DNA from: Escherichia phage JLBYU43
DNA length: 64,000 nt
Sequence record: NC_105512.1
Strand: one strand, 5' to 3'
In this document: in pieces, positions 31,921 through 61,170 of the stretch
How the letters are laid out: every line of letters begins with the position of its first letter
Numbering within the stretch: the first letter of the stretch is position 1
The notes under the pieces: generated by a model
What the model was told of the DNA's origin: nothing
What the model saw: only the letters and a program-made list of their open reading frames with translations
The model's database searches: none
Program-made: the position numbers and the translations under genes

Positions 31921-31924
31921 AATT

Positions 31925-32466: not shown

Positions 32467-32641
32467 AGACTTCCTTAATAGAATAAACTTTTAAGTAAGG
32501 GTGATTAATACCAAATTCCGCCATCACTTCGTTTTCATCTTTACCGTAATGGGCTAGTGGATACTTCTTACGATCTTTGCTAGAACGCAGATCACTTACT
32601 TTTAAACGAAATAATTTCATTTCGAAATCCTTCTATTAAAT

Positions 32642-32719
32642 TGGAAGCGGGTGTAGGAATCGAACCTACCTCTTTCTAGCTTATGAGACTAGCGATCTCT
32701 ACCAGAGATCTAACCCGCA
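32642..32719 (-). tRNA. tRNA-Met (CAU)
   Basis: loop CTCATAA, T-arm GTAGG-TTCGATT-CCTAC, CCA encoded; 1-72 pair mismatched. Confidence 0.5.
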
Positions 32720-32725
32720 ATTGTT

Positions 32726-32803
32726 TGGTCTCCGTGGGAGGATTTGAACCCCCGACCCTACCGCCCCAAACGGAACGCTCTGGCCAAACTGAGCTACACG
32801 GAG
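32726..32803 (-). tRNA. tRNA-Pro (UGG)
   Basis: perfect acceptor CTCCGTG/CACGGAG, loop TTTGGGG, CCA encoded. Confidence 0.6.
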
Positions 32804-33119
32804 AATATTCTTTGTTAACTCACTTTATAAGATATATTATACAGAGAATTAAGTGAAATAGCAAATGAATTTTTAATAAATTTACTTATTGCGTAGGCCA
32901 CCTGGAGGGTTCAAGCCCCACGGCTGACAAAGAAGTTTGCGAGACTTCTCTTAAATGCCAGAATAGACCCGCCGATCTATCGGAACCTACATAATAAGTA
33001 AACTTTCGTTTACCTACACCTACCTGGTCGGGAGGATTTTCAGCGACTAGAACCGGCCGGAAACTCATCGCCTTGTTTACCCTGTAGTCCCACTATAAGT
33101 GACGCGACCTACAAAGATT

Positions 33120-33193
33120 TGGTGCGGTCGGAGGGAATCGAACCCTCAACTTCTGGTTGGCAACCAAAAATTATACCTTTTAACTACGAACGC
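33120..33193 (-). tRNA. tRNA-Gly (GCC)
   Basis: T-arm GAGGG-TTCGATT-CCCTC, loop TTGCCAA, CCA encoded. Confidence 0.5.
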
Positions 33194-33406
33194 ATAATGA
33201 GTCAATCTAGGTAGGACTTGAACCTACTATCACTTGTGCGGATTTACGAGAACCATTCTTTCACTCGAATCGAACGAGCTTCTACCCTCGGCAAGCTGGT
33301 GTCCCCTCTCCACCACGCTAGAATGATAATTAATGCCTGCTCCTTTGAATCAAGAAGTCCACCCCGGACTTTGGGTCTTTGCAGTACATCACGCTGCTCT
33401 GATGTT

Positions 33407-33483
33407 TGGTACACCCACTAGGACTTGAACCTAGAACCCTCCGCTTAAGAGGCGGTAGCTCTAACCAATTGAGCTATGGATGT
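33407..33483 (-). tRNA. tRNA-Lys (CUU)
   Basis: acceptor ACATCCA/TGGGTGT, loop CTCTTAA, CCA encoded. Confidence 0.5.
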
Positions 33484-33489
33484 ATAATT

Positions 33490-33542
33490 TGGCGGTACTA
33501 AGGGTAATCGAAACCCTACCTCTCCCGTGACAGGGGAGTACC
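33490..33542 (-). tRNA. compact tRNA-like element without D-arm (anticodon loop GUC, Asp-like)
   Basis: 53 nt: acceptor-like stem, hairpin CTCCC-CTGTCAC-GGGAG, T-arm AGGGT-TTCGATT-ACCCT, CCA encoded; no room for a D-arm. Confidence 0.3.
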
Positions 33543-33574
33543 ATTACCAAGCCAGCCCCGATCGCATAATTTAT

Positions 33575-33760
33575 TTACTCAGCTTTGAGTTTTTCGATAG
33601 CTTCCTCAACCTCTTTTAGAGCTTCACGACGCTCTACTTGACCTTGAAGTTCTTCAAGAAGTTCAGCTTTCAGAGCCTTAATAATATTACCACGAACCTT
33701 AATATTATTAATCATATTATCACGATCAGCTTCTAGTCGAGCAATTGCACGAGTTGTCAT
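33575..33760 (-). CDS. small coiled-coil protein
   Basis: 61-aa charged ORF. Confidence 0.35.
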   Translation of the reverse strand: MTTRAIARLEADRDNMINNIKVRGNIIKALKAELLEELQGQVERREALKEVEEAIEKLKAE

Positions 33761-33787
33761 ATCTATTTCCTCAGTTGTTAGTGAAAT

Positions 33788-33873
33788 TGGCGGGCCGTGT
33801 AGGAGTTGAACCTACTTTATCCTTGCGGATACGGATTAACAGTCCGGCGCTTAAACCGTTCAGCCAACGACCC
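33788..33873 (-). tRNA. tRNA with anticodon GUU (Asn-type loop) and long variable arm
   Basis: 86 nt; acceptor GGGTCGT/ACGGCCC, loop CTGTTAA, variable hairpin ATCC-GCAA-GGAT, CCA encoded. Confidence 0.5.
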
Positions 33874-34025
33874 TAAATTTATATTGCTGACTAGGATTTT
33901 CACCTAGACGGAGTTAGCACCGTAGCGTGTAGCGGCATACCTCTCCAAACCGTGCCTCATCTTTCAATTACTGAGGCAGTGTTCCTACGCGTGCCTGAAC
34001 TGTTTTAACAATTCTTTCAGCAAAT

Positions 34026-34101
34026 TGGACGACCGCATGAGATTCGAACTCACATAAAAAGGATTTGCAATCCTTCGCCTAAGCCATTCAGCCAACAGTC
34101 G
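34026..34101 (-). tRNA. tRNA-Cys (GCA)
   Basis: loop TTGCAAA on a perfect AAGGA/TCCTT stem, discriminator U, CCA encoded. Confidence 0.6.
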
Positions 34102-34282
34102 ATTTATCTTGTTTTTCGAGATCTTCAAATTCTAGATTTATAGAATGTCCTATGGACCTAGCATAATAGCTATCTCCAGCATCAGTATCTCTTTCAATTT
34201 GGTACAACCTGTACGCAACGATCGTACCTCTTCTCCTTTTCAGGGAGATACTAATCCTTCTCAGTTAAAGTTGCATATTATC

Positions 34283-34353
34283 TGGCAGGGGTAAAGGTAT
34301 TCGAAACCTTTTCATGGGTTTTGGAGGCCCACTAGCAACCTATGCGTACCCCA
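34283..34353 (-). tRNA. tRNA-Trp (CCA)
   Basis: 3' end CCCCTGCCA as in E. coli tRNA-Trp, loop CTCCAAA. Confidence 0.55.
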
Positions 34354-34362
34354 ATTATTAAT

Positions 34363-34437
34363 TGGCACACCCACGGAGAATTGAACTCCGATTCTCAGAT
34401 TGAAATCCTGATGTCCTAACCATTAGACGATAGGTGC
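34363..34437 (-). tRNA. tRNA-Glu (UUC)
   Basis: Glu-type D-arm GTCTAATGGTTAGGAC, loop ATTTCAA, CCA encoded. Confidence 0.55.
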
Positions 34438-34445
34438 ATTAATTT

Positions 34446-34526
34446 TGGTGGGGGATGGAGGACTCGAACCTCCGCGTGGTATACCCGGTCTACAGCCAGG
34501 CGCCGTCGCCACTGAGCCAATCCCCC
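34446..34526 (-). tRNA. tRNA, probable anticodon GUA (Tyr)
   Basis: perfect acceptor GGGGGAT/ATCCCCC and T-arm, CCA encoded; anticodon arm fold ambiguous. Confidence 0.45.
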
Positions 34527-34632
34527 ATATTTGAATGAAAAGTAAGTCGGTTAAACTCAAAGTGGAATATTTCAGGAAATCCTGACTTTACCCCTAAAAG
34601 CAACTCGCTTAATTACTTCTCATTCAGATATG

Positions 34633-34661
34633 TTTCCAAAGTAGATAACTATTATATCAAG
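34633..34661 (-). promoter_or_regulatory. sigma70 promoter upstream of the tRNA cluster (TTGCTC-17-TATAAT)
   Basis: consensus -10 and 17-bp spacer on the minus strand; a 13-bp-stem hairpin lies immediately upstream at 34662-34701; ~110-nt leader before tRNA-Tyr. Confidence 0.5.
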
Positions 34662-34715
34662 TTTTATGGCACTGAGCAAGTCAGATTTTAAAGAACTTGC
34701 TCAGTGCTATATCAG

Positions 34716-35009
34716 TTAATCAAATGAAGGAGTGACTTTCAAAGTGAATGGAAGTTCGAATACCTCTTCACCTTCATCAGTAACAGTGACTACTCGACCC
34801 TCTAGATTATTCATGCTGATTTCAACATCAGCCGTAGCATCAGGAGCCATACCAGCCTCAATACATTGAGCTTTGATCTCTGGAAGAAGTTCTACATTGT
34901 AGAAATAAAGCCACTCGATCTCACCTTCCCAACCACCCCAGGATTTACATACTGAGCTTTCAATACCAGTTGCTGTAACACGTTTTGACATTCTGATTCC
35001 TCTCATCAA
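34716..35009 (-). CDS. hypothetical protein
   Basis: 97-aa ORF. Confidence 0.5.
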   Translation of the reverse strand: MMRGIRMSKRVTATGIESSVCKSWGGWEGEIEWLYFYNVELLPEIKAQCIEAGMAPDATADVEISMNNLEGRVVTVTDEGEEVFELPFTLKVTPSFD

Positions 35010-35080
35010 TTTATATAACTATTATATCAGAAATTTAAGGCAAAAGGCAAGTACATTTTTAAAAATTCTGTTTGGAGGAG

Positions 35081-35287
35081 TTAAAGACCGGATTCATCAG
35101 CCAGATCTAGACCAATAAGGGTGATTGCCATGATTGCAGCAGCCTGTTCTTTTTCACTCACATCTTTAGCAGACGCGATAATCTTTTCAAATTGTGATTT
35201 AAAATCTGCTACTTCAGCTTCTAAACCAGCTTCAGCAATAATGCCTTTCACCATAATACGCTGCGTCATAATTTCAGGATTTGCCAT
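35081..35287 (-). CDS. hypothetical protein
   Basis: 68-aa ORF. Confidence 0.4.
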   Translation of the reverse strand: MANPEIMTQRIMVKGIIAEAGLEAEVADFKSQFEKIIASAKDVSEKEQAAAIMAITLIGLDLADESGL

Positions 35288-35462
35288 TTGTTTTCTCCAG
35301 TTTCATTTTTAGTATTTTGCAAACAAAGTCAATATCTTCATCCGTGCCTAGATCTCTATCTTCAAGGGTTGCCTTGAAATTTTTTGTTAGTTCCATAAGA
35401 ATAACTTCCCTGGAACGACGTGTTGGCGGAGGTGGATGTCTATACATCTTAATTCCTTAATT

Positions 35463-35537
35463 TGGTGGGTCGGAGGAGAATCTAACTCCTACTCGTTAGC
35501 TTATGAGGCCACCGCTTTAACTTTAAGCTACCGACCC
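35463..35537 (-). tRNA. tRNA with anticodon CAU (Met/fMet/Ile2)
   Basis: perfect acceptor GGGTCGG/CCGACCC, loop CTCATAA, CCA encoded; anticodon stem weak. Confidence 0.5.
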
Positions 35538-35543
35538 TATGTT

Positions 35544-35632
35544 TGGAGGAAGAAGTGGGAATCGAACCCACAAGGCTATATTTCAAACTGACAGATTAGC
35601 AATCTGCTGCAATACCGTTATGCTATTCTTCC
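35544..35632 (-). tRNA. tRNA-Ser (GCU), long variable arm
   Basis: perfect acceptor GGAAGAA/TTCTTCC, loop TTGCTAA, CCA encoded. Confidence 0.55.
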
Positions 35633-35653
35633 GAATTTATAAGATATATTATA

Positions 35654-36172
35654 TTAGAAATTTAGCTTCATAGCAAGAAAATTTTTCAAGTTTTCGGTAG
35701 ACATCTCATCCACATCTACAGGAGAAACAAATCCATTTAATTGTTTAGCAAATTTTTCACCTGCAGGATCATTATCCCCAACAGCTACCAATTTAAAAGG
35801 TAGTAATTTCAATTGCTTTAACAACGCTTTTCCAGGGGAAGAACCCAACATTGCTAGGGCTGGATAACCAGCATTATGTAATGCAACTGCCTTAAATACA
35901 GATTCAGCAATCAATACTACTTTTTCATCTCCATTGAGAGTTTCTAGTCCCCATACACACTGGGTAGTAGAATAAGTAAAATATTTAGCTTCAAAGGGAC
36001 ACTTACCATGACCTTTTGGAGCAGAAGGATTATAAGTTTGATAGCCCCTCAACATCCCAGAGAAATCATATAACGGGACTGTTAGCCATCCTTCCGGACT
36101 TAACCAGCAATGATATTTTTCTGTATCAAATCCCCTAGATAGAAGGTGCTGTGTTAGCTCATCAACACTCAT
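35654..36172 (-). CDS. Toprim-domain protein (primase-like)
   Basis: conserved Glu (LIAES) and DxD (VAVGDNDPAG) typical of DnaG-type Toprim. Confidence 0.45.
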   Translation of the reverse strand: MSVDELTQHLLSRGFDTEKYHCWLSPEGWLTVPLYDFSGMLRGYQTYNPSAPKGHGKCPFEAKYFTYSTTQCVWGLETLNGDEKVVLIAESVFKAVALHNAGYPALAMLGSSPGKALLKQLKLLPFKLVAVGDNDPAGEKFAKQLNGFVSPVDVDEMSTENLKNFLAMKLNF

Positions 36173-36210
36173 ATTTGATCTCCTAGTTAGTTTTATAAAT
36201 ACATTATATA

Positions 36211-36242
36211 GAAAAGCCCGCGCTCTCGGAGGAAACGCGGGC
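36211..36242 (-). terminator. rho-independent terminator
   Basis: AGCCCGCG/CGCGGGCT stem followed by a U-tract on the minus strand. Confidence 0.5.
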
Positions 36243-36267
36243 TTGTTTCGAAGATTACGTGTAACTA

Positions 36268-37284
36268 TTACTTATTACGCATATCCATAATCATCTGGCC
36301 ATCATAACCAGTACCTACAACAGTCTGAGGAACGCCACCCTGATATTTTTCAGCGCGTTTCATATCAACTTCCAGCTGCTTCCAACGAATCATTTCAGGA
36401 GTAATGGTACGTTGCAGAGCGGCGTTAGCTTCAGCTTCTTTCTTAGCTGCGTACAGTTTAGCATCTGCGTCACGTTCGTTAGCTACTGCCATATTTTCAC
36501 GAGCAGAACGATCAGCTTCAGCTTGCTTAACTTTCTGCTGTGCTTCTTGTTCAACACGAGCTAGTTCAGCTTTTGCAGCGTTAACTTGTTCTTCACGAAC
36601 TTTTGTGTTTTGTACCTGTTCCATGATTACCGGTGGCAGAGTAATATCCTGAAGGAATACTTGCTTAACGGTGTAACCATAAGGACGCGCGTACTCTTCT
36701 ACTTCTTGCTGAATAGCGGTTTGCAGTTGAGCCTGAATCTTAGCGTCGAACAGATCTTGTGCTTTTGGTACAGACTTACCAAACTCACGAATCGTAGACA
36801 GCATCTTCTCTTCAACGTACTTGTTCAGAGCTTGATCCTGAGTACCTGCGTTAATACGGTTAATCGGTGCCTTAGAACCATCAAACTGCAACATAACAGT
36901 CAAGTCAACAGTGGATTTAAACTTATCCTGGCTAGGAACCTGAAGTTTATCTAATTTTACAGCAATATCTTTTGTACTAAAAGTATCGAAAGATGCAAAC
37001 GGGTTTACAAGATGGAAACCAGGCAATACTGGATTAGGATCTACTTTACCCAGAAATGTTTGGGTTTTAACCGTACCATCAGAAACAATAGTATATGAAT
37101 TAAAAGCTAGAATCAAGCCTGCTAAACCAACTACAGCACCAATACCCCAACGTTTAATAGTATATGAATTAAAAGCTAGAATCAAGCCTGCTAAACCAAC
37201 TACAGCACCAATACCCCAACGTTTAATAGTACGAATTACTTTCTGCTCAGAAGTCAGTTCTTTCATATTTTTAGTATTAAACAT
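36268..37284 (-). CDS. SPFH/band-7 (prohibitin, HflC-like) membrane protein
   Basis: N-terminal TM anchor, SPFH core, C-terminal coiled coil; contains an exact 69-bp tandem duplication. Confidence 0.7.
   Translation of the reverse strand: MFNTKNMKELTSEQKVIRTIKRWGIGAVVGLAGLILAFNSYTIKRWGIGAVVGLAGLILAFNSYTIVSDGTVKTQTFLGKVDPNPVLPGFHLVNPFASFDTFSTKDIAVKLDKLQVPSQDKFKSTVDLTVMLQFDGSKAPINRINAGTQDQALNKYVEEKMLSTIREFGKSVPKAQDLFDAKIQAQLQTAIQQEVEEYARPYGYTVKQVFLQDITLPPVIMEQVQNTKVREEQVNAAKAELARVEQEAQQKVKQAEADRSARENMAVANERDADAKLYAAKKEAEANAALQRTITPEMIRWKQLEVDMKRAEKYQGGVPQTVVGTGYDGQMIMDMRNK
37087..37231. repeat. 69-bp perfect tandem duplication (2.1 copies)
   Basis: 37088-37156 is identical to 37157-37225; in frame, duplicating the TM segment of the SPFH protein. 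Confidence 0.85.
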
Positions 37285-37318
37285 ATGTTTCCTTTGTTTT
37301 AGTTACAGTTAATAAAAT

Positions 37319-37393
37319 TGGCCGAGGTGACAGGATTCGAACCTGCATAAAGGAATTTAGAAGACTCCTGCCTATCCCTTAGACTACACCCCG
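37319..37393 (-). tRNA. tRNA-Arg (UCU)
   Basis: T-arm GCAGG-TTCGAAT-CCTGT, loop CTTCTAA, CCA encoded. Confidence 0.55.
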
Positions 37394-47948: not shown

Positions 47949-50277
47949 AAATAGTACAACCACCGGATGCACAACCGGCTGCTTCTTCTCCAGCACCTCC
48001 ACCATTTGCGGTATTGAAGTTTGCATAGTAGAAAGTTTTCCACCCATACTTAACAGCAGTCATGAAATCACGAACTACTACTGGGCCAGGAATGATTTCA
48101 TTCTCAAACTTGGTGTAGTCATAGTACATATTCGTACTGATAGACTGACTGAAGAATTTCTGCATAGTTGCTACCCATTTGATCCACTCGATACGATCTA
48201 CATCATAAGCCAGTTTATAGCTCATTAACGTTTCCCAATCAGTTGCACCTGGAGCAATTGCAATTACTTTATTAACTGCACTACCCTTGATAGATACAAT
48301 CTTACGAGGTGGTTCGATAGAGTTAGTAACACCTAACAGAACAGAAGAACTTTCTCCCGGCATCTGAGCAGTCAGAACAGAGTTACGCATACCATATTTC
48401 AGAATATCTGCACGCAGAGACTCCCAATCCATTTCTAGACCTACAGATACCAGTTCATCAACAGTTTTCTTGTACGTGTCGATTACCAGAATTCCTTTAG
48501 ACGGTTTAGTACGATCAAACCACTCACATGCACCCTGTTCTTTAGCTAGGCGTACAGAGGCTTTATGCAGGAAGTAAGACAGTTTTTCAGCCTCACGGTG
48601 GATCCAGTTACGGGCTTCAATACCTTCATAAGCCAGACCTTCTGCTGCCATTGCACCTGCTGCGTTCATTAGGCCAATACCAACATTACGACGTTTCTTA
48701 GCCGTATATTCCATAGTTGGGAACGGATAATCCTGAATTTCAATAATTGTATCAACGAATTTCAGGAGGATGTAGCAAGTTTTTTCCCACTCAGCCAGAG
48801 ATTCCATGCGTCCAAGTACAACACCACCTAAGTTACACAGAGATACTTCACCAATATCCTCCGGCTTCATTTGATCAAGCTGCTCTTTTGTCTTATACAG
48901 TTCTGTGATATGATGGAACGGGCGTGTAGGCTGAGTAATTTCAACACAAAGGTTTGTCATACGGATCGGATCAAGGAAGTTACCATGACGATTAGATTCC
49001 CCGATGTGATGAGCATACATACGTCCTGTTTCCATTCGGATACGTAGCCAAGTATCTAGGATTTCTTTTGCGGAAACTTTAGGAGCTGCTGGAACTGTTT
49101 TTCCTTCATGATCGATCTTTGTAAGAGATGCCACACGTTTCTCCGCTGCCACGTAGATTTCTTCAAATTTAGCCTCGTCATCACTATAAAACGCTTCATG
49201 AACTTCTGGAGCATAGAAGTATGACATTAGCGTAATATCTTCGTTTTTAAGATAACGTTTTAACAAAAGATTGTTAAAGCTCAGAGAATAATCCATCTTA
49301 TCGATTTTATTCTCATCTGTAGCACGTTGTTGCTTAACCTGCATCAATTGAATGATTTCAGGGTCGAAGTATGGATAAGACACTGTGGCAGAACCACCAC
49401 GAGTTTGCTGAGTATTGGCCTTTACTGAGCGGTCAATGTGTCGATAATATGGCAGTTTTCCGGAATGCGGGAATGCCCCATTTCGCACCGGATCAGCAAT
49501 TGATCGGCTTTCAAGATGATACCCGATTCCCGCTCTGGCTGCGACCATTTTGAAGACGATGTGCTCGGCGGTGTCGATTGAATCCAACGTGTCAGTGGAA
49601 TCCACGAGGCAGCAACTAGCAAATCCACGGTCACTAGAGCGCAGACCAACCAGTGGCGGCGTAGGAACGTTGATTTTGTGGAGTGACATTGCGTTGTAGA
49701 GGTCGATTGCATCTAGAATTGTCCAGTTAGGTTGAGATAGCATCGCCATTGCCATACCCATGTAGGCAAACTGCGGAGTTTCGTAAATTTCACCAGTGGC
49801 TATGTTGCGACGGGAATACTTATCAAAGAACTGCTTCAGTCCACCACTAGTAAAAAGACGATCACGATCATGGTCGATAACCTGATTCAGAGCTTCAAAT
49901 TGCTCATCGGTAATCCATGCACTCATGTCTTCCCATGCACCTACGCTAACCATATGGTCATGGAAGAAGCGTAGAGAAGGTGGTTCGAAAGAGTCATAGA
50001 GGCGCTTACGCATTTGCGCAAGACGTAATTCCTTTGCTGGCACATCGTATGCTGGGTTATCTTTAATAAGACTTTCAGCAGCTTTAATTAATGCATCCAT
50101 CAGAGTGTCGGAATCTACAACCCCTTTAGGCAGAGTTTTTTGAGCAGCCATAGTAATGGCTGACCAACTTACATCAACTGTTTTGCAACCATACTCTGCC
50201 CAACCATTGATTTTTTCAGGAGCAAAGTCTTCTACAGTACCGTCACGTTTAATTACTTTTTCAATGCGATGGCTCAT
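47947..50277 (-). CDS. nrdA: ribonucleotide reductase class Ia alpha subunit
   Basis: ATP-cone N-terminus; start set to ATG 50277 (AGGAAAG RBS), trimming a 35-aa upstream extension in the track. Confidence 0.85.
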   Translation of the reverse strand: MSHRIEKVIKRDGTVEDFAPEKINGWAEYGCKTVDVSWSAITMAAQKTLPKGVVDSDTLMDALIKAAESLIKDNPAYDVPAKELRLAQMRKRLYDSFEPPSLRFFHDHMVSVGAWEDMSAWITDEQFEALNQVIDHDRDRLFTSGGLKQFFDKYSRRNIATGEIYETPQFAYMGMAMAMLSQPNWTILDAIDLYNAMSLHKINVPTPPLVGLRSSDRGFASCCLVDSTDTLDSIDTAEHIVFKMVAARAGIGYHLESRSIADPVRNGAFPHSGKLPYYRHIDRSVKANTQQTRGGSATVSYPYFDPEIIQLMQVKQQRATDENKIDKMDYSLSFNNLLLKRYLKNEDITLMSYFYAPEVHEAFYSDDEAKFEEIYVAAEKRVASLTKIDHEGKTVPAAPKVSAKEILDTWLRIRMETGRMYAHHIGESNRHGNFLDPIRMTNLCVEITQPTRPFHHITELYKTKEQLDQMKPEDIGEVSLCNLGGVVLGRMESLAEWEKTCYILLKFVDTIIEIQDYPFPTMEYTAKKRRNVGIGLMNAAGAMAAEGLAYEGIEARNWIHREAEKLSYFLHKASVRLAKEQGACEWFDRTKPSKGILVIDTYKKTVDELVSVGLEMDWESLRADILKYGMRNSVLTAQMPGESSSVLLGVTNSIEPPRKIVSIKGSAVNKVIAIAPGATDWETLMSYKLAYDVDRIEWIKWVATMQKFFSQSISTNMYYDYTKFENEIIPGPVVVRDFMTAVKYGWKTFYYANFNTANGGGAGEEAAGCASGGCTI

Positions 50278-50419
50278 TTGGCTTTCCTTTTTATAGTTAT
50301 CAGGATTTAAGGAATATTCTACTTTATTATCGGTCATTAGGCAAATAAAATTTTCTGATAGAAAAGGCCCGAGTATTTTCATACCCAGGCCCTGTGTATT
50401 ACCAGTCTAGCTTTTTAGC

Positions 50420-50641
50420 TTATTCAATTACTTTAGCTCTAGCTACTTCTTTTAATAGAATATCTATGGAGGTGCTCAGCTCGTTATAATTGAATGGTTT
50501 ATTTGGATTTGAGGTTACAATTTTCCACGCTAGGGTTGTCTTAGGACTTTCTTCCCCTTCCTTACGTGTAATAATATTAGCAGCACTCAGTGAAGTACGA
50601 TGTATTTTAGTTTTACGGCTCAGATGAACGACGTTTCCCAT
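50420..50641 (-). CDS. hypothetical protein
   Basis: start set to the internal ATG with a GGGGAAGGTG RBS just after the phoH stop. Confidence 0.4.
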   Translation of the reverse strand: MGNVVHLSRKTKIHRTSLSAANIITRKEGEESPKTTLAWKIVTSNPNKPFNYNELSTSIDILLKEVARAKVIE

Positions 50642-50642
50642 A

Positions 50643-51404
50643 TTACACCTTCCCCATGTCTTTAAAAATACCATAGAATGCTTTAGACTCAACAGAACGA
50701 ACGTTATCAATCAATTCGATCATTGAGAATGGGGCATTTTCATATTTCTCATAGACTTCCATAAGGAGTGCTAGACCTGAGTCACCTTTAATGTCTTTCT
50801 GAGCTATATCTCCGCAGATAATTAAACGGCAGTCTTGTCCTACACGAGTTAGGAGACAAATCATTGCCTCAACGGAAATATTCTGAGCTTCATCGACAAT
50901 TACATAGGAGTTGTTGAAAGTTCTGCCACGAGCATGTTCGATAGCCAAAAATTTAATTTTCTGACGTTCGACATATCCCTTATATGCATGATCTCCGATG
51001 GCCCATTTCATACCATCAGCTATTGGCTCCAACCAAGGCTCTAGCTTTTCCGCTAGATCACCAGGAAGCATACCAAGAGACTTACCTAGAGGTTCATTAG
51101 GACGTACGAGGATCACTTGCTCAATATCTGAGTGAATGTCTACGAGTTCCTGAGCTGCAAGAACGGACGGAATAAAGGTTTTACCAGTACCTGGCTCACC
51201 GATACCCACAGTCACTGTGTTGTTCTTGATCATATTGATATATGATTTTTGCTCGCGGTTTTTACCTACTAGGGATTTAGCAACTGGGTTAGCGTAATCA
51301 TTAGAAAAATCAGCCTGAATTACGTTATTCTCATATTTGTTGCCACGCTTTCTTGAACCATTGCGGTTCTCTCTTTTTTGACGTGCTTTTCCCATAAATA
51401 ACAC
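50643..51404 (-). CDS. phoH: PhoH-like ATPase
   Basis: Walker A GEPGTGKT, PhoH-like architecture. Confidence 0.8.
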   Translation of the reverse strand: MLFMGKARQKRENRNGSRKRGNKYENNVIQADFSNDYANPVAKSLVGKNREQKSYINMIKNNTVTVGIGEPGTGKTFIPSVLAAQELVDIHSDIEQVILVRPNEPLGKSLGMLPGDLAEKLEPWLEPIADGMKWAIGDHAYKGYVERQKIKFLAIEHARGRTFNNSYVIVDEAQNISVEAMICLLTRVGQDCRLIICGDIAQKDIKGDSGLALLMEVYEKYENAPFSMIELIDNVRSVESKAFYGIFKDMGKV

Positions 51405-51694
51405 TCCTATAGTGTACTTCGCTTCTAACAGAGGATCAACAAAAAGATCTTGTTTATCAACTTACAAATATATTATACCAATATATGTGGGAGAAAGCAA
51501 CTACAATTTTAAATAAGCATATGATATTGCATTTAAATAAAAAATTTGCTTGCTTATAGAGGCAGAAATATGATACTAGATAATCATTTATTTATACGCA
51601 AAATATTACAGTATTAGATGACGAAAGAAAATTTTAATTGACATAGTGGATAATGTTTAGTATAATAGGTGTAAAAATTCTGTGGAGAAGGGGA

Positions 51695-52558
51695 ATGCCG
51701 AAAAAATTAACTCAAGAAGAAGTAGATAAATGCCTAGCCGAACGTGGTTTTACTATGGTGGATAAGCCTTACCAAAATTCTAGGTATAGGCATACGTATC
51801 AGTGTGAATATGGTCATCAATGGACATCTAAATTTGATGCTATTAGGAATGGAAAGACCAATTGTCCTACTTGTTCTATTAATAGCCGTAAACTAGATAT
51901 CGATAAAATTAATACTGTATTACAGGGTAGGGGTATTACATTGTTGGAGGGCTATAAAAATAGTGCCGATATAAATACTAAATTTAGGTGTGTTTGTGGT
52001 CATGAGTGGGCTACTACACTTAATAGTATAATTAATAGAGGTAGTGGCTGCCCCTCTTGTGCTATTAATAAACAAAAACTTAGTATTAATACTATAAACG
52101 ATCGTCTTACTGCTAGGAATATTAGAATAGTAGGTGAATATAGTAATGCGAATATTAAGACCACCTTTCTCTGTGGTGCAGGGCATCAGTGGGAAGCTAC
52201 TCCAGGATCCGTGTTAGGAGGAAATGGTTGTCCTTACTGTAAGTATAGGGATTTAGAAAATACTAAGGTATATATTATGCATAGCCCTTCACATGGTGTT
52301 AAAATAGGAAGGTCTAACAATCCAGAGCGCAGACTTTTACATATTAAATCTAGTAGTCACCTTACTGATCTGGAAGTAATTAAAGTATTTGAAATTGGAG
52401 AATATAGTGATGCTGTTCAAATCGAAAAATTAGCTCATAATTACTTTAAAGAACAGAATTGCCAATACAAAGATTTTGATGGTGCTACGGAATTCTTCAA
52501 TATTGAGCCAGAAGTAGCTATAAAATTTATCGAGGAAATAATCAATGACAGAAAATGA
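51695..52558 (+). CDS. T5orf172-domain protein with three zinc-ribbon repeats
   Basis: three ~47-aa repeats CxxGHxW...GxGCPxC followed by a T5orf172/GIY-YIG-like C-terminus; start at ATG 51695 with a GGAGAAGGGG RBS. Confidence 0.55.
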   Translation: MPKKLTQEEVDKCLAERGFTMVDKPYQNSRYRHTYQCEYGHQWTSKFDAIRNGKTNCPTCSINSRKLDIDKINTVLQGRGITLLEGYKNSADINTKFRCVCGHEWATTLNSIINRGSGCPSCAINKQKLSINTINDRLTARNIRIVGEYSNANIKTTFLCGAGHQWEATPGSVLGGNGCPYCKYRDLENTKVYIMHSPSHGVKIGRSNNPERRLLHIKSSSHLTDLEVIKVFEIGEYSDAVQIEKLAHNYFKEQNCQYKDFDGATEFFNIEPEVAIKFIEEIINDRK

Positions 52559-56833: not shown

Positions 56834-57262
56834 ATGTTTAATAATGTATTCTCTAAAGAAGCTAACCCAATTTTGGTTAACTTTTGGCGTACTCTCCCAG
56901 CTAGCCTGTATAATGAGGCTATTAACTCTTTGAAAATATGGTGTGAGAATAACGAAATCTCCTTTGCTTTTAAAGATGATATTGATGAGGCCCCTTGTAT
57001 TGGTTTAATTGTTCAGGTAGAGGAGGGTCTTGAAGAGATTGTCGGCTGGAAAGAGTTAGATGAAATGGGCTTAGTTTTTGCATTAAATTATAAGCTGTTT
57101 ATGCCTGCTAAGCATCGCCTCGTTGTTAACTATAAAACTAGTGAGTCTCCTGGTTTTCAGGTTAATGAACGTGAGGGCTGGTCATATTCGCCCGAGGAAG
57201 TAAATGAAGGGATTCAGAAACTTCGTCGTTTCGGGTATATGATCCCAGGTTTAACTGCTTAA
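56834..57262 (+). CDS. hypothetical protein
   Basis: 142-aa ORF. Confidence 0.5.
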   Translation: MFNNVFSKEANPILVNFWRTLPASLYNEAINSLKIWCENNEISFAFKDDIDEAPCIGLIVQVEEGLEEIVGWKELDEMGLVFALNYKLFMPAKHRLVVNYKTSESPGFQVNEREGWSYSPEEVNEGIQKLRRFGYMIPGLTA

Positions 57263-57271
57263 GGAGGCAGA

Positions 57272-57667
57272 ATGGAACAAGTATTTTGGCGTCAGATAGA
57301 TCCTAGTTTGGTAGAGCGTGCTGAGGGGCTCCTTGCACATTGGTTGGGGGTTGACAAGGTTAGTGTAACATTTCCGTTTACTTCTGTAACAGACCCTAGT
57401 GTAGGTGTATTTGTGGACGAAGATGAAGATGATGGTTGGGAAGCTGACTGGAATGAATTGTCCAGCATGGGCTTGATTGTTGCCATCAACTTCTCTATAT
57501 TCCATCCACGTGGCTTAGCCATTACACGTGACCCCGAAACTGGTGAATCCCCTTATCTTTTGCAAGTAGAAGATGATATTTGGGAGTACACCGAAGATAT
57601 TCTCGAAGAAGCTAAAGGTCAATTAAATCGCATTGGGATCTATGTTCCAGGCCTAAATGATGATTGA
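57272..57667 (+). CDS. hypothetical acidic protein
   Basis: 131 aa, AGGAGG RBS. Confidence 0.5.
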   Translation: MEQVFWRQIDPSLVERAEGLLAHWLGVDKVSVTFPFTSVTDPSVGVFVDEDEDDGWEADWNELSSMGLIVAINFSIFHPRGLAITRDPETGESPYLLQVEDDIWEYTEDILEEAKGQLNRIGIYVPGLNDD

Positions 57668-57690
57668 TTTTCATTAGCCCAATCCTGATT

Positions 57691-57718
57691 ACCGAGTCAT
57701 TTTGGCTCGGTTTTCTCT
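57691..57718 (+). terminator. rho-independent terminator
   Basis: ACCGAG/CTCGGT stem followed by a T-tract. Confidence 0.55.
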
Positions 57719-57753
57719 GTGCTCAAAGACACTGATAGCACCTTCGTAAAAAA

Positions 57754-57782
57754 TTTTGTTGCACGATGCTCAAAATCTTGGT
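57754..57782 (+). promoter_or_regulatory. candidate sigma70 promoter (TTGCAC-17-TATAAT)
   Basis: consensus -10, 17-bp spacer, upstream A-tract; ~590 nt before the next start codon. Confidence 0.45.
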
Positions 57783-58380
57783 ATAATATTTATATTGAAT
57801 TGAGAGACATTAGTAAAAATTGATTTTGCTAATTTTTCTTAGTGAAGCTGACAATGGATTTACGGCGAGAGTGGTCGATGACCCGTAAATAGCTGCATAA
57901 GGTACGTTGCTAGAGCTTTATGAAAAAGTTTTTCTTGTTTACAATCCGCGATACGGAACAGTTAGGCTGCCCCATTAAGGGTTGTTTTAACTATTACTAG
58001 TGTTTATATTGCATTAGTTAATCTTCAATTAAGTGATCTGTGTACCCTGAATTCGGAAAGGTAAATCCAAACCGTGCATATTTAGCTCGTTATATAGGCA
58101 GAGCTTTATATGGGGGTGCGAACGAAAAGAGCAGCGAATGGCGGCACGTACAGTAGTCACCTACCAATAGGATAGCGAGGACAAATAGAATCGGCTTAGC
58201 GGCCAATGACCTAGGTTCTATTCTGTATATGAGCGAAGAGAGCACAGCACTGAGATATGATAACTTATTCATATTGTTTGATGATAATTGATGTTTACGT
58301 AAATAGTAGTAATAGTTGTTCTATTCTTTCTGAATAGTCCTAAAGAAAAGATTTCGATTAATCAACACAGGAGTATTGTT

Positions 58381-61170
58381 GTGTTTTCTATCCTCCAAGG
58401 TCACGCCGGGTTTTCTCGTGATTTAGCAACAGGTATTTGGCGAGAAATCAAAGCGGAAGATTATACCTTTGCCAAACGATTCTCGAAAGAGCATCCAGAA
58501 GGTAAACCAGCTTCTATGCCCTTCAAATTTGATGTAATAGAAGAGCACGACCCACAAAGCCTTGCTGAAATGTTACCACTTATGAGACGTTTAACGTCTG
58601 ACCCTCATATCGTTGTGGTACGAGGTCGATGTCTTGCACCTAAAAATAATGTGCGACGTAAGAAAGGTAACTTTAATGTATCCAACCCTAGCAATATTAT
58701 TGCTATGGACGTGGATGGTATCCTGGATACCGGTGGGTACGACAAGTTTAATCTTGTAGGTATGGCCCGTCACATTATTAAGATGTTGAATAGTATTAGT
58801 GAGGACATGTTTCCTCTTGATGCAGGGTTTATTGCTCATGCATCGTCTTCGGCTGGCCTAAAACCAGGTATCCGAATGCACTTAATGCTAGAATCTAACG
58901 TCAAGGTAACTCAAGGTCAGTTAAAGTTCTTATTTACGTCTATCAATGATAGTAGTAAGCAAAAATTCGGTTTTGATATTGCCGACTTAGCTTATTATTC
59001 ATCTGTCCAGCTTCACTATTTTGCCGACCCTTTATTTAGCGATGGTATTGTTGATCCGTTTAAAGCGGAGAGTAAGCCACGTCTGGTGTATGTTAAAGGT
59101 TCGAAAGTAAATTTGCCTAATAATCTGGTTGACTATGAAACAACTAGAGGGGAGTTTAAGGAAGAGTTTTATTCTTTACTTGATCAAATTAAAGGCAAAA
59201 AGATTGCTTCTGATAAAGTAGAAGAAACCATCAGCGAATTGGAAGAAGCTGAGGATGGGGTGTACTTGCGTATTATCCCCAAACTATACCATAGAGCATT
59301 AGAGGATGGTGTTGATTTCGCATGGCTAGAACGTGAGATTAAACCCGCTTTATCTGAATATATTGCAACTAAAGATAACAGTCGTAATATTCAAGATTAC
59401 TTTAATAACGGTCGTAAGCAGGCTCTCAAAGCGTTTGTTAATAATTCTAAACGCGAGATTCCATTAAATCTGAAAGGTGTTCCTCTTAAGAAATTAGAAG
59501 TGGATTCTCCACCAGAAGTTCCATACCTGAAGATTAACATTGTGCCCCCAAAAGGGCATATAACATTTGTTAAGGCAAGTCTTGGTACTGGCAAAACTAC
59601 GGCAGTAACTAAATGGCTGGACGCAGGTGTTCTTCCTGGCAACTTTTTAGCAGTTACAAATACTAGAGCGCTGGTATCTTCAAACGCTAAGAAATTTAGC
59701 GCAGGACAATATGATAAGTCTGTAGATATGCTCAACTTTAAACGTGGAGCTATTGATCGTATGTCCACAACTATTCACTCTTTGCATAAGTTCAAGAGTT
59801 TTATTGGTCAAATTGATGCAATCTTTATCGATGAATGTGATGCTGTAATGAATGACCTATTATTCGCCCCGGTTGTTAAACAGCGTCGTGAATGTATTCA
59901 AGTTCTACGTGACATCCTCATGACAGCTAAAACTGTAATTCTATCAGATGGTGATATTAGTGCCGAAACTATTGAAGCATATGGTTCTCTAATTGATTTT
60001 GATAAACCAGTAGCATTTTATAATCATCACCGTAAAATGCTGTCAAAAGCTCATGCTTATGAGTTCCCTGACGAATCCAGTATTTGGGTTGCACTTCAAA
60101 CATCTCTAGAGATGGGTGAGAAGTCAATCCTAGTATCTGACTGTGGACCTGATGAATTAAATGAAAAGGGAATGGCATTACGTCGTAATACCGGTGCGTT
60201 AGTTAAAGAAATTCACTCAAACTCTACGTCTGATGTAGATATCCGACGTATTCTGGATTATACAACTAATGAGCTAATTGATCAACAGATTGATTGTTTG
60301 TTATGTAGTCCATCTGTAACGAGTGGTGTTGACTTTAACTATTTTGATAACGTATTCGTAATCACTAGAACCTCAAACCAAGCGCCAAACATGCGTTTCC
60401 AAGCAATCAGGCGCGACCGTGGTGCTCAGAACATTTATTATTTTATTGATAAATCTACGAGTGGATTTTCTGCAGGTTCCGAGCAATATAATATTGACGA
60501 GGGTTGGATTGAGTTAGCCCAACAACTGTACGCACGTCGTCGTGAGCTGGAATCTAGAAACTATACCAGTACTTTGCGTTATTATCTTCTCGATCAAGGT
60601 GCAACTATTGATATCTTCAGTGAAAGCTGGGGGACTATCGAAGGTGCAGGCAAAGAGTATACAGAAGAGCGAATCAAAGCCATTTTGTATTCAACTCCTG
60701 ATTATTGTGCTCCACGCCATGCAGATGCGTATGAAGCTAAACTACTTCTTGTTCGCTATTATCATCTTGAGTCTATTAAAGATGTAACAGTTGAGCATGT
60801 TGAGCAATATATCAAGGATAAACCTAATGATCGAGCTGCATTCTTCCATAAAATGCACGAGATGTTCTGGGAAGATATTAAGAAGTGTTCAAATGTCACT
60901 ATCAAACCATTCATAGAAGCTCTGAAAGGTAAGAAGAAAGATTTCTTCCTTAAAACAGGTCAGAGTGCTAACCCAAAATACGCCAGAATGTATCTTGGTA
61001 TGATGGGTATTGGTAAGGATATGAACACGGAGAATATTGTAGACTGGTACAGAACCTATTGTAAAATCGAATGTATGCCAATCCCGTATAAGTTTATGAC
61101 TGATGAGGAGAAACATATGCATGATGAAGCAATGGCAGAGCTAGGCGCTAGAAATGACAGTGAAGAATAA
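58381..61170 (+). CDS. large Walker-ATPase/helicase-like protein (putative replication initiator or origin-binding protein)
   Basis: 929 aa; GTG start after an AGGAG RBS; Walker A SLGTGKTT and Walker B-like IFIDECD. Confidence 0.6.
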   Translation: MFSILQGHAGFSRDLATGIWREIKAEDYTFAKRFSKEHPEGKPASMPFKFDVIEEHDPQSLAEMLPLMRRLTSDPHIVVVRGRCLAPKNNVRRKKGNFNVSNPSNIIAMDVDGILDTGGYDKFNLVGMARHIIKMLNSISEDMFPLDAGFIAHASSSAGLKPGIRMHLMLESNVKVTQGQLKFLFTSINDSSKQKFGFDIADLAYYSSVQLHYFADPLFSDGIVDPFKAESKPRLVYVKGSKVNLPNNLVDYETTRGEFKEEFYSLLDQIKGKKIASDKVEETISELEEAEDGVYLRIIPKLYHRALEDGVDFAWLEREIKPALSEYIATKDNSRNIQDYFNNGRKQALKAFVNNSKREIPLNLKGVPLKKLEVDSPPEVPYLKINIVPPKGHITFVKASLGTGKTTAVTKWLDAGVLPGNFLAVTNTRALVSSNAKKFSAGQYDKSVDMLNFKRGAIDRMSTTIHSLHKFKSFIGQIDAIFIDECDAVMNDLLFAPVVKQRRECIQVLRDILMTAKTVILSDGDISAETIEAYGSLIDFDKPVAFYNHHRKMLSKAHAYEFPDESSIWVALQTSLEMGEKSILVSDCGPDELNEKGMALRRNTGALVKEIHSNSTSDVDIRRILDYTTNELIDQQIDCLLCSPSVTSGVDFNYFDNVFVITRTSNQAPNMRFQAIRRDRGAQNIYYFIDKSTSGFSAGSEQYNIDEGWIELAQQLYARRRELESRNYTSTLRYYLLDQGATIDIFSESWGTIEGAGKEYTEERIKAILYSTPDYCAPRHADAYEAKLLLVRYYHLESIKDVTVEHVEQYIKDKPNDRAAFFHKMHEMFWEDIKKCSNVTIKPFIEALKGKKKDFFLKTGQSANPKYARMYLGMMGIGKDMNTENIVDWYRTYCKIECMPIPYKFMTDEEKHMHDEAMAELGARNDSEE

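What the first reader, a model, noticed from the sequence alone, without database searches (positions are those of the whole stretch)
57668..58380. ~700-bp non-coding region upstream of the 929-aa helicase-like gene
The region has a terminator (57691-57718), a candidate promoter (57754-57782) and then ~590 nt of AT-rich untranslated DNA before the GTG start at 58381. Its position in front of a putative origin-binding/helicase protein makes it a candidate replication origin or a structured 5' UTR.
Basis: inference. Interest (0 to 1): 0.5.

Follow-up and report, generated by a model that had tools for sequence, protein, structure and literature searches.

The report
Conserved structured leader RNA, T5 helicase gene
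The 700-bp gap in front of the phage T5-type "origin-binding" helicase gene is transcribed from its own strong promoter into a ~590-nt leader that folds into a structure conserved across T5-like phages and matching no catalogued RNA family; its function is unknown.

Summary
The window is a T5-like phage (Tequintavirus). The region 57668-58380 is non-coding. It holds a terminator, a conserved sigma-70 promoter and a ~587-nt leader ending at the GTG of the 929-aa helicase gene (T5.108, "replication origin binding" protein). The "AT-rich" description fails: the leader core is 42% GC against 39% for the window.

The leader is at least as conserved as the coding DNA beside it. Six diverged phage lineages (hosts Escherichia/Salmonella, Klebsiella, Pectobacterium) keep the same set of helices through compensatory changes. 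On an unsupervised alignment, 94% of cells are paired, against 31-46% in slid controls. 24 of 54 pairs change on both sides, and 0 of 500 shuffles reach the observed values.

G·U pairs place the structure on the sense strand. A covariance model built without the window's lineage finds the window's copy as the only hit in 64 kb (E = 5e-6). Rfam has no match and no ORF is conserved.

Origin hallmarks at the DNA level are absent: no iterons, no DnaA boxes, no GC-skew switch. The best reading is a new, large cis-acting leader RNA of the helicase mRNA. A transcript-primed origin, as in ColE1 RNA II, remains a live rival because the T5 origin has been mapped near the genome centre, where this locus lies.

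The parts
57691..57718 (+). Intrinsic terminator ending the upstream DUF7415 operon
   Evidence: 9-bp stem with 3-nt loop and T-run. Conserved by covariation in relatives. Annotated in T5 and BF23.
57748..57787 (+). Sigma-70 early promoter: A/T tract, -35 TTGCAC (57759-57764), 17-nt spacer, extended -10 TGgTATAAT (57779-57787). Start inferred near A57794.
   Evidence: Read from the sequence. Conserved in all Demerecviridae loci examined, 500-800 nt upstream of the helicase gene in most (about 1,080 nt in Vibrio phage D260). Annotated as a promoter in T5 NC_005859. The start site is inferred, not measured.
57799..57843 (+). P1: 5'-terminal hairpin of the transcript (AUUAGUAAAA / UUUUGCUAAU with an extension)
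   Evidence: Present in both MFE and centroid folds. Sugarland, DU_PP_V and Providencia phages have an equivalent hairpin of different sequence.
57841..57936 (+). Optional 96-nt insert module that folds on its own, flanked by the 8-nt direct repeat TTTTTCTT (57833-57840 and 57929-57936)
   Evidence: Absent from T5 (gap of 617 against 713 bp). Found in 49 of about 520 phage records, always once and at this site. Repeat coordinates. Forms local hairpins.
57942..57984 (+). Pa domain: stem CAAUCC/GGGUUG plus GAU/AUU enclosing the invariant hairpin ACGGAACAGUUAGGCUGCCCC
   Evidence: Helix 1: 97.9% of cells paired. Pair 25:51 occurs as GU, AU, CG, GC and UA. Pair 30:46 occurs as GC and AU.
57989..58007 (+). 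Pb, 5' strand of the long-range closing helix (AACUAUUACUA, then UGUUUAU)
   Evidence: Pairs with 58299-58317 across about 300 nt. Duplex energy beats shuffles (p<=0.01) in four of the five main lineage groups (the two Tequintavirus sub-lineages count as one group in this test; Sugarland p=0.14). 6 of 11 pairs change on both sides.
58033..58047 (+). Px 5' strand (GUG-AU-CUGUGU, with a conserved 2-nt bulge), followed by the P2 5' strand ACCC
   Evidence: Px is helix 3: 98.1% paired, 6 of 9 pairs changed on both sides. This includes changes within one genus (CUGCG/CGCAG against CUACA/UGUAG). P2 (58044-58047 with 58114-58117) was read by eye and is only tentative.
58184..58222 (+). Pc: stem AAUAGAAUC/GGUUCUAUU carrying the invariant apex GGCU[UAGC]GGCC (CUUAGCGG at 58195-58202) and a 9-nt 3' bulge
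   Evidence: The CUUAGCGG motif is invariant in all 35 sequences. In one search, 7 of the 9 outer-stem pairs (helix 4) and 1 of the 4 apical-hairpin pairs (helix 5) change on both sides. In the Infernal alignment the figures are 7 of 9 and 2 of 4. The motif occurs once in the window. It is the core of covariance model R1.
58242..58250 (+). Px 3' strand (GCACAG-CAC)
58255..58274 (+). Pd hairpin (AUAUGA / UCAUAU)
   Evidence: An A:U to G:C compensation occurs in the sister lineage L014. Other lineages have a hairpin at the same place with the conserved loop GUUGCCACC and pair 82:165 as UA, AU or GC.
58299..58317 (+). Pb 3' strand (GUAAAUA, then UAGUAAUAGUU)
58321..58337 (+). Pe hairpin (CUAUUC-UUUCU-GAAUAG)
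   Evidence: Helix 6 (93% paired). Sugarland and DU_PP_V have a hairpin of different sequence at the same place.
58338..58383 (+). AU-rich spacer, SD AGGAG (58369-58373) and GTG start (58381)
   Evidence: The start position is shared by all homologues.
58381..61170 (+). Downstream gene: 929-aa SF2 helicase annotated "replication origin binding protein" (T5.108)
   Evidence: ORF. Pfam Herpes_ori_bp at residues 389-533. PHROG 3712. The only PDB relatives are herpesvirus origin-binding proteins, over the same stretch. The domain position matches the T5 "D2" bipolar helicase of PMC3632103.

Best explanation
The region is one transcription unit start. A terminator closes the upstream operon. A strong, conserved early promoter then fires. 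The first ~587 nt of the helicase mRNA (about 490 nt in T5, which lacks an optional 96-nt insert) form a large multi-helix RNA.

Its layout, 5' to 3':
- a 5' hairpin (P1);
- a small domain with an invariant hairpin (Pa);
- a ~330-nt domain closed by a long-range helix (Pb);
- inside that, a second closing helix (Px), an invariant CU[UAGC]GG-tipped hairpin (Pc) and a further hairpin (Pd);
- a last hairpin (Pe) about 30 nt before the ribosome-binding site.

I take it to be a new family of cis-acting leader RNA that sets how much helicase is made from a very strong promoter and a weak GTG start. The likely route is a protein, possibly the helicase itself, binding the invariant loops. The 5' hairpin would protect the message.

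Shown: the non-coding status, the promoter and terminator, the conserved sense-strand structure, the constant geometry, and the absence from Rfam. Inferred: the transcription start, that the RNA acts in cis, and the regulatory mechanism.
For: **Identity and context**
- The window is a T5-like phage, and the gap lies between T5.107 and T5.108 homologues.

**Selection on the nucleotides**
- The leader core 57929-58380 is 99% identical to T5-group phages, whose helicase gene is 94-99% identical.
- It is 92% identical to the L014 group, whose helicase gene is only 85% identical.

**Constant geometry**
- The two invariant motifs lie 233-243 nt apart in all lineages, although the sequence between them is only 40-60% identical.

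**Covariation on an unsupervised MAFFT alignment of 35 distinct sequences**
- 54 pairs, with 94.4% of cells paired, against 31-46% when partners are slid.
- 24 pairs changed on both sides, against 7-11 in slid controls.
- Covariation score 0.277, against 0.04-0.07 in slid controls.
- 0 of 500 shuffles reach the observed values.

**Independent support**
- Each lineage's own minimum-energy fold recovers the long-range helix and the Pc and Pe hairpins.
- A covariance model built only from the other four lineages finds the window's copy at 58175-58295 with E = 5e-6. It is the only hit in the 64-kb window. Pair counts on the resulting alignment agree.

**Strand**
- 256 G·U cells against 12 A·C cells, so 94.4% are paired on the sense strand and 81.3% on the antisense strand.
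- Fold z-score is -2.2 for the sense strand and -0.75 for the antisense strand.

**Other**
- No conserved ORF.
- A promoter lies far upstream of this gene throughout the family: 500-800 nt in most loci and about 1,080 nt in Vibrio phage D260.
Against: - No transcript data were available, so the start site, read-through into the gene and stability are all inferred.
- No anti-SD or terminator "expression platform" is shared by all lineages. The last conserved hairpin ends about 30 nt before the SD. The link between the structure and translation is therefore unproven.
- Only about six independent lineages carry the covariation, so counts of cells overstate the number of evolutionary events.
- The structure was drawn by me from these same sequences, which favours it over the slid controls.
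- The interior of the central domain is only partly solved.
- ssDNA of the same strand could in principle form the same hairpins.
Confidence: 0.5

Rival explanations
1. Transcript-primed replication origin. The promoter's RNA folds and forms a persistent R-loop with the template, as ColE1 RNA II does or as at T4 oriF/oriG and the T7 primary origin. The RNA primes leading-strand synthesis and gives the adjacent helicase a place to load. Its structure is conserved because folding decides whether the R-loop forms.
For: - The locus is at the genome centre in T5, Sugarland, DU_PP_V and My1 (about 58-59 kb of 106-122 kb). T5 origins are reported near the centre of the molecule (bioRxiv 10.1101/866236).
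- It lies directly upstream of the only "origin-binding"-type helicase, which the authors of PMC3632103 propose as the initiator.
- It has a strong promoter, a leader of about 500-600 nt similar in size to RNA II (my own knowledge), and a stretch of ~130 nt at 27% GC at its end.
- Conserved RNA structure fits an RNA-II-like pre-primer but not a purely protein-bound dsDNA origin.
Against: - There are no iterons, tandem repeats or DnaA boxes.
- The GC-skew minimum is at 50-52 kb, not here.
- No G-run or C-run R-loop anchor is conserved. The G5 run at 58111-58115 is confined to the T5 lineage.
- Retron-based editing suggested dominant unidirectional T5 replication from one end (PMC10055335).
- No experimental mapping exists.
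Confidence: 0.2
2. A stand-alone non-coding RNA, either trans-acting or a processed stable RNA. It happens to be co-transcribed with the helicase gene and would bind a host or phage factor, for example as a decoy or scaffold.
For: - It is large, with invariant loops (CUUAGCGG; GUUGCCACC in four lineages) typical of protein or RNA contact sites.
- It is modular: the central domain has been swapped between genera while the flanks stay 89-96% identical, and it tolerates a 96-nt insert.
- Large structured RNAs of unknown role are known from phages (GOLLD, ROOL; my own knowledge).
Against: - No terminator or processing signal separates it from the gene. After Pe there is no U-run.
- It is always in the same place, directly upstream of the same gene, in every lineage.
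- The window holds a single copy and no second CUUAGCGG site that could be a target.
Confidence: 0.12
3. A double-stranded DNA origin or protein-binding region. The apparent RNA helices would be by-products of inverted repeats bound by the initiator.
For: - The position next to the initiator-like gene.
- A 9-mer identical to the core of the herpesvirus UL9 box I (CGTTCGCAC, minus strand, 58116-58124) lies inside the region (the box sequence is from my own knowledge).
Against: - The arms of the main helices lie up to 300 nt apart and change by compensation rather than staying fixed as binding sites.
- G·U pairs outnumber A·C 256 to 12, which a symmetric DNA site would not show.
- The UL9-like 9-mer is absent from the other four lineages. 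The 8-mer core occurs once in 64 kb, where about 2 are expected by my own estimate (one search gives the count).
- No repeated motif is present.
Confidence: 0.05

Closest known systems
ColE1 RNA II pre-primer; also the R-loop origins T4 oriF/oriG and the T7 primary origin
   Same: A strong promoter is followed by a long (~500-600 nt) structured untranslated RNA beside replication functions. Structure conservation would matter for function. The location agrees with the reported central T5 origins.
   Different: No sequence or Rfam relation. No conserved R-loop anchor. The RNA runs straight into a translated gene. No replication data exist. Comparison points about ColE1, T4 and T7 come from my own knowledge.
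Autoregulated phage replication-gene leaders (T4 gene 32 pseudoknot, T4 gene 43 operator, RegA targets)
   Same: A structured 5' leader of a replication gene in a lytic coliphage. The plausible logic is limiting an initiator made from a strong promoter.
   Different: Those operators are tens of nucleotides long and overlap or abut the ribosome-binding site (my own knowledge). Here the conserved structure spans more than 450 nt and ends about 30 nt before the SD. No binding protein is known.
Large phage-associated structured RNAs of unknown function in Rfam (GOLLD, ROOL)
   Same: Hundreds of nucleotides long, multi-helix, phage-borne, and supported by covariation rather than by experiment.
   Different: No Rfam family matches at E<=1, either in the window or in four diverged homologues. 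This RNA is an mRNA leader at a fixed locus, not a free-standing gene.
Riboswitch-type leaders
   Same: A multi-helix junction with invariant unpaired nucleotides upstream of a gene. RNAalifold proposes an alternative pairing, GGAACAG (57955-57961) with UUGUUCU (58316-58322), which excludes the Pa hairpin and part of Pe.
   Different: No known aptamer matches. No shared terminator or anti-SD platform is present. The alternative pairing is kept in only three or four lineages.

Membership tests
Any Rfam 15 family | Covariance-model match at or near the family's gathering score | tested here: not met
   Permissive E-value scans of window 57200-58900 and of four diverged homologous loci were run. 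The only hit was Hrs1 at E=0.25 on the opposite strand over the terminator (21.6 bits against a gathering score of 56.4). Nothing else appeared.
Conserved structured RNA (generic criterion) | Helices maintained by compensatory changes beyond shuffled and slid controls | tested here: met
   94.4% of cells paired against 31-46% in slid controls. 24 pairs changed on both sides against 7-11. 0 of 500 shuffles reach the observed values. One search agrees on an Infernal alignment.
Conserved structured RNA (generic criterion) | The structure belongs to the transcribed (sense) strand | tested here: met
   256 G·U cells against 12 A·C cells. The sense fold has z=-2.2 and the antisense fold z=-0.75. The promoter faces the same way.
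Conserved structured RNA (generic criterion) | Evidence that the RNA is made | not testable with these tools
   No transcript data are held. The promoter is inferred from the sequence, its conservation and the T5 annotation.
Iteron or DnaA-type dsDNA replication origin | Repeated initiator-binding sites (iterons) or DnaA boxes | tested here: not met
   Only short two-copy repeats at chance level. No tandem repeats. No DnaA box in 57668-58380.
Iteron or DnaA-type dsDNA replication origin | AT-rich unwinding element | tested here: inconclusive
   58250-58380 is 26.7% GC. It also contains the Pd and Pe hairpins and the ribosome-binding site, and no 13-mer-like repeats.
Iteron or DnaA-type dsDNA replication origin | Strand-compositional switch at the site | tested here: not met
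   The cumulative GC-skew minimum is at about 50-52 kb, where transcription direction changes. It is not at 57.7-58.4 kb.
Transcript-primed (R-loop) origin, ColE1 RNA II / T4 oriF type | A promoter directing a structured untranslated RNA toward an easily melted region | tested here: met
   Promoter at 57759-57787, structured leader, and a 27% GC stretch at its 3' end.
Transcript-primed (R-loop) origin, ColE1 RNA II / T4 oriF type | Persistent RNA-DNA hybrid and primer processing at the site, with initiation mapped there | not testable with these tools
   This needs DRIP, marker-frequency or 2D-gel data. The literature held says only that T5 origins are near the centre of the molecule.
Translational operator of T4 gene 32 / gene 43 type | The structured element overlaps or abuts the SD or start codon | tested here: not met
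   The last conserved hairpin ends at 58337 and the SD is at 58369-58373. No SD-sequestering pairing is shared by all lineages.
Riboswitch | A known aptamer, or a conserved expression platform (terminator or anti-SD) coupled to the aptamer | tested here: not met
   No Rfam aptamer matches. There is no terminator between 57794 and 58381. The alternative pairing is only partly conserved.

The most novel reading that the evidence does not exclude
This leader would be the long-sought origin element of phage T5. It would be a new class of large structured pre-primer RNA whose folding controls R-loop formation and loading of the adjacent bipolar helicase, a ColE1-RNA-II-like mechanism in a large lytic phage. 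An alternative novel reading is a new large riboregulator that senses a replication-related signal.
Probability: 0.2. Interest if true: 0.8.

Novelty: new variant of a known kind. Interest (0 to 1): 0.6.

Why it matters
T5 is a classic model phage, yet its origin and the control of its replication initiator are still unknown.

This analysis turns an unannotated gap, labelled only "promoter" and "terminator" in T5 and BF23 and given dubious small ORFs in some other records, into a defined RNA of ~450-590 nt. The RNA has testable helices and two invariant loops. It is conserved in several hundred sequenced phages of Escherichia, Salmonella, Klebsiella and Pectobacterium, many of them being developed for therapy or biocontrol.

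It offers direct experiments for two open questions: how the initiator helicase is regulated, and where T5 replication starts. It also adds a candidate family to the small set of large structured phage RNAs.

Tried and rejected
- **Rfam.** Scans of the window region and of four diverged homologues found nothing usable.
- **Small proteins.** ORFs of 30-73 aa exist on both strands, but none is shared between lineages. The 60-aa minus-strand ORF of the window is already truncated in the sister lineage.
- **Mobile element for the 96-nt insert.** It is single-copy and always at this site, so it is an optional module rather than a MITE.
- **Origin hallmarks.** Iterons, tandem repeats, DnaA boxes and GC skew were all negative.
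- **UL9 box-I-like 9-mer at 58116-58124.** It is confined to one lineage and occurs at chance frequency, so I treat it as coincidence.
- **SD-sequestering pairings.** They exist in single lineages (Sugarland UUCUUC/GGAGAA; DU_PP_V CUUCUUUCC/GAAGGAAG) but are not shared.
- **Pairing of GCGAUAC with GUAUUGU near the start codon.** It is seen only in the Tequintavirus and Epseptimavirus lineages, so I rejected it as general.
- **Structure-aware alignment.** mafft-qinsi is not installed. The MAFFT alignment puts the Pd, Pe and P2 helices of some lineages out of register, so those are under-counted or were left out.
- **Collection scans with the motif patterns.**
  - The single-motif scan of viral contigs returned about 23 loci that lack the second motif.
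  - The two-motif metagenome scan returned four contigs (L099, L106-L108) with no similarity to the family.
  - Model R1 did not match any of the nine it was run on, so I treat these loci as chance matches.
- **Distant relatives.** Vibrio and Aeromonas T5-like phages are not matched by model R1 and share no leader sequence with the T5 type.
- **Primary literature.** The 1976 electron-microscopy paper on T5 origins (PMC515544) is not held.

Full report
**What is there**

The window is a T5-like phage. The 851 bases around the finding match 519 phage records, mostly Salmonella, Escherichia and Klebsiella phages of the Demerecviridae, at 80-99% identity.

The gap 57668-58380 lies between a DUF7415 gene (57272-57667) and a 929-aa ORF that starts with GTG at 58381. 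That ORF is the homologue of T5.108, annotated "replication origin binding" protein:
- Pfam Herpes_ori_bp matches residues 389-533.
- PHROG 3712 matches end to end.
- Its only relatives with solved structures are herpesvirus origin-binding proteins, over the same ~145 residues.
- The domain position equals that reported for the T5 "D2" bipolar helicase, which its authors regard as the likely replication initiator (PMC3632103).
- Some GenBank records give the name D2 to a different 234-aa protein downstream.

**Checking the observation**

- *Terminator.* The stem is at 57691-57711 with a T-run to 57718. T5 and BF23 annotate it. Klebsiella phage Sugarland has a hairpin of different sequence at the same place.
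- *Promoter.* The -35 TTGCAC is at 57759-57764, then a 17-nt spacer and TGgTATAAT at 57779-57787, preceded by an A/T tract.
  - The consensus scanner missed it because the -35 scores 3 of 6.
  - It is conserved in every relative, including phages whose helicase is only 57% identical.
  - T5 annotates a promoter there.
- *Leader length.* Taking A57794 as the start (an inference), the leader is about 587 nt.
- *Composition.* The leader is not AT-rich as a whole. It is 37.4% GC against 38.9% for the window, its core is 42.2%, and only the last ~130 nt drop to 26.7%.
- *Coding potential.* No ORF in the gap is conserved across lineages.

**The region is under selection as nucleotides**

Window 57929-58380 is about 99% identical to T5-group phages, whose helicase gene is 94-99% identical. 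It is 92% identical to a sister group (L014/L016/L035), whose helicase gene is only 85% identical.

In Epseptimavirus-type phages the flanks stay 89-96% identical, but the central ~300 nt are replaced by sequence of almost the same length that BLAST no longer aligns.

Two motifs survive everywhere: ACGGAACAGUnnGGCUGC and CUUAGCGG. The distance between them is 233-243 nt in all lineages, although the sequence between them is only 40-60% identical. That constant geometry is what a folded RNA would impose.

**Structure**

I collected 35 distinct leaders from IMG/VR, GenBank phages and metagenomes. They fall into six lineages, named through:

| Lineage | Representative | Phage group |
|---|---|---|
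| A1 | window, T5 (L002) | Tequintavirus, T5-like |
| A2 | L014 | Tequintavirus sister group |
| B | L017 | Epseptimavirus-like |
| C | L029 | Klebsiella phage Sugarland |
| D | L031 | Pectobacterium phage DU_PP_V |
| F | L042 | Pectobacterium phage My1 |

Each lineage's own minimum-energy fold gives the same layout. In window coordinates:
- a 5' hairpin, P1 (57799-57843);
- a small domain, Pa (57942-57984);
- a long-range helix, Pb (57989-58007 with 58299-58317);
- inside Pb, a second closing helix, Px (58033-58043 with 58242-58250, with a conserved 2-nt bulge);
- a hairpin, Pc (58184-58222), tipped by GGCU[UAGC]GGCC;
- a hairpin, Pd (58255-58274);
- outside Pb, a hairpin, Pe (58321-58337).

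The Pb duplex beats composition-matched shuffles at p<=0.01 in four of the five main lineage groups (A1 and A2 taken together) and reaches p=0.14 in Sugarland.

I wrote these helices onto the unsupervised MAFFT alignment A1 and counted pairs:

| Measure | Observed | Slid controls |
|---|---|---|
| Cells paired | 94.4% | 31-46% |
| Pairs changed on both sides (of 54) | 24 | 7-11 |
| Covariation score | 0.277 | 0.04-0.07 |

None of 500 column shuffles reached the observed values.

Several pairs occur in four or five types, for example 25:51 as GU, AU, CG, GC and UA, and 288:314 as AU, UA, UG and GC. Compensation also occurs between close relatives. In Px, CUGUG/CACAG (T5) becomes CUGCG/CGCAG (L014) and CUACA/UGUAG (some Epseptimavirus). 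In Pd, A:U becomes G:C in L014.

MAFFT puts some helices of Sugarland, DU_PP_V and My1 out of register, so these figures are conservative for those lineages.

**Independent checks**

- A covariance model built only from lineages B, C, D and F, covering Pc to Pd, finds the window's own lineage at 58175-58295 with 29 bits and E = 5e-6.
  - It is the only hit in the 64-kb window.
  - The model rejects every unrelated contig it was run on from the motif scans.
- The Infernal alignment of 23 hits gives 92% paired against 32-49% in slid controls.
- The structure is on the sense strand.
  - G·U cells outnumber A·C cells 256 to 12, so 94.4% pair on the sense strand and 81.3% on the antisense strand.
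  - The sense fold has z = -2.2 and the antisense fold z = -0.75.
- Rfam has no match in the window or in four diverged homologues.
- Full-text searches found no description of this element.

**Limits**

- About six lineages carry all the covariation.
- I drew the structure from the same sequences.
- The interior of the central domain, including a probable helix P2 at 58044-58047 with 58114-58117, is only partly solved.
- No transcript data were available.

**Range**

- The homologous RNA is clear in phages of Escherichia, Salmonella, Klebsiella and Pectobacterium.
- Providencia phages keep the Pc hairpin and motif weakly (E 0.2-0.9).
- Proteus phage Stubb keeps Pc only (E 4).
- Aeromonas phage AhSzq-1 has a perfect hairpin with the same CU[UAGC]GG tip about 900 nt upstream of its helicase gene.
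- Vibrio T5-like phages have equally long leaders (650-700 nt) with their own conserved islands but no detectable homology.
- A long promoter-proximal leader before this gene is thus a family trait. The specific fold belongs to the enterobacterial branch.

**Function**

The data show a conserved sense-strand RNA structure that begins at a strong promoter and runs into the helicase gene. No terminator or U-run lies between them. The simplest reading is a cis-acting leader.

It would work as a 5' hairpin for stability plus a large folded platform whose invariant loops are contact sites for a protein, possibly the helicase itself. That would limit output from a strong promoter through a weak GTG start. 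I give this reading about 0.5.

What weakens it is that no anti-SD or terminator platform is shared. The last conserved hairpin ends about 30 nt before the SD.

RNAalifold also proposes that the invariant GGAACAG (57955-57961) pairs with UUGUUCU (58316-58322), which would exclude the Pa hairpin and part of Pe. This possible switch is kept in three or four lineages only.

**The origin reading**

DNA-level hallmarks are absent. There are no iterons, tandem repeats or DnaA boxes. The GC-skew minimum is at 50-52 kb, where gene orientation changes.

A 9-mer equal to the core of herpesvirus UL9 box I lies at 58116-58124 (minus strand). It is confined to the T5 lineage and occurs at chance frequency.

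A transcript-primed origin is not excluded, however. The locus is at the genome centre in T5 and its relatives, where T5 origins are said to lie (bioRxiv 10.1101/866236). It sits next to the presumed initiator. An RNA-II-like pre-primer would explain conserved RNA folding. I give this about 0.2. A recent editing study inferred mostly unidirectional T5 replication from one end (PMC10055335), which argues against a dominant central origin.

A stand-alone non-coding RNA (about 0.12) and a purely dsDNA site (about 0.05) are less likely.

**Verdict**

The "origin" half remains open.

The element is a previously uncatalogued large structured RNA in a classic model phage. It is a new variant of a known kind (a structured mRNA leader), with a modest chance of being something more unusual.

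Noticed in passing
window 57841-57936 (repeats at 57833-57840 and 57929-57936): A 96-nt insert in the leader is flanked by the 8-nt direct repeat TTTTTCTT. It folds into its own hairpins. It is present in only 49 of about 520 related phage records, across different genera, and always at this one site. It looks like an optional RNA module gained or lost by slippage or recombination.
   Followed up: partly
window 57955-57961 and 58316-58322: The invariant GGAACAG can pair with UUGUUCU about 360 nt downstream (RNAalifold). One-sided changes in Sugarland keep the pairing. This excludes the Pa hairpin and part of Pe, so it could be a conformational switch. It is only partly conserved in the Pectobacterium phages.
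   Followed up: partly
window 58116-58124 (minus strand): CGTTCGCAC is identical to the core of the herpesvirus UL9 origin box I. It lies in the leader of a gene whose helicase core resembles UL9. It is present only in the T5-like lineage and the 8-mer occurs once in the window, so it is probably chance.
   Followed up: partly
L041 about 400-440 (Aeromonas phage AhSzq-1, ~900 nt upstream of its helicase gene): The perfect hairpin GGGAAUCUCC-UUAGC-GGGAGAUUCCC carries the same CU[UAGC]GG tip as the T5-type Pc hairpin. This phage's helicase is only 27% identical.
   Followed up: no
L037, L110-L114, L040 (Vibrio T5-like phages), 650-700 nt upstream of the helicase gene: These leaders are equally long and start at a strong promoter. 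They have their own conserved islands (for example GUAAGAGUG and ACGUAGAG) but no detectable homology to the T5-type leader. They may form a second, analogous RNA family.
   Followed up: partly
window 56834-57262 and 57272-57667: Two adjacent paralogous genes with a DUF7415 domain lie directly upstream. The second is 98-99% identical to the L014 group but only 72-76% identical to T5, while the leader shows the opposite pattern. A recombination boundary therefore lies near the terminator.
   Followed up: no
window about 50000-52000: The cumulative GC skew reaches its minimum here, 6-8 kb upstream of the finding, where gene orientation switches. A published GC-skew "origin" call for phage phiLLS (PMC5519627) is likewise offset from its leader, by about 3 kb.
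   Followed up: partly
window 27669-37393 (minus strand): A cluster of 23 tRNA genes, typical of T5-like phages.
   Followed up: no
window 8617-8625, 8690-8698, 16573-16581: Three perfect DnaA boxes (TTATCCACA) lie on the minus strand, two of them 73 nt apart. The total count of the relaxed motif in the window is at chance level.
   Followed up: no
L036 736-1441 (Proteus phage Stubb); also OZ196512 (Vibrio phage D153): Public records annotate several 30-55-aa "hypothetical proteins" inside the equivalent leader. The Stubb annotators themselves flagged some as doubtful. They are probably not genes.
   Followed up: no
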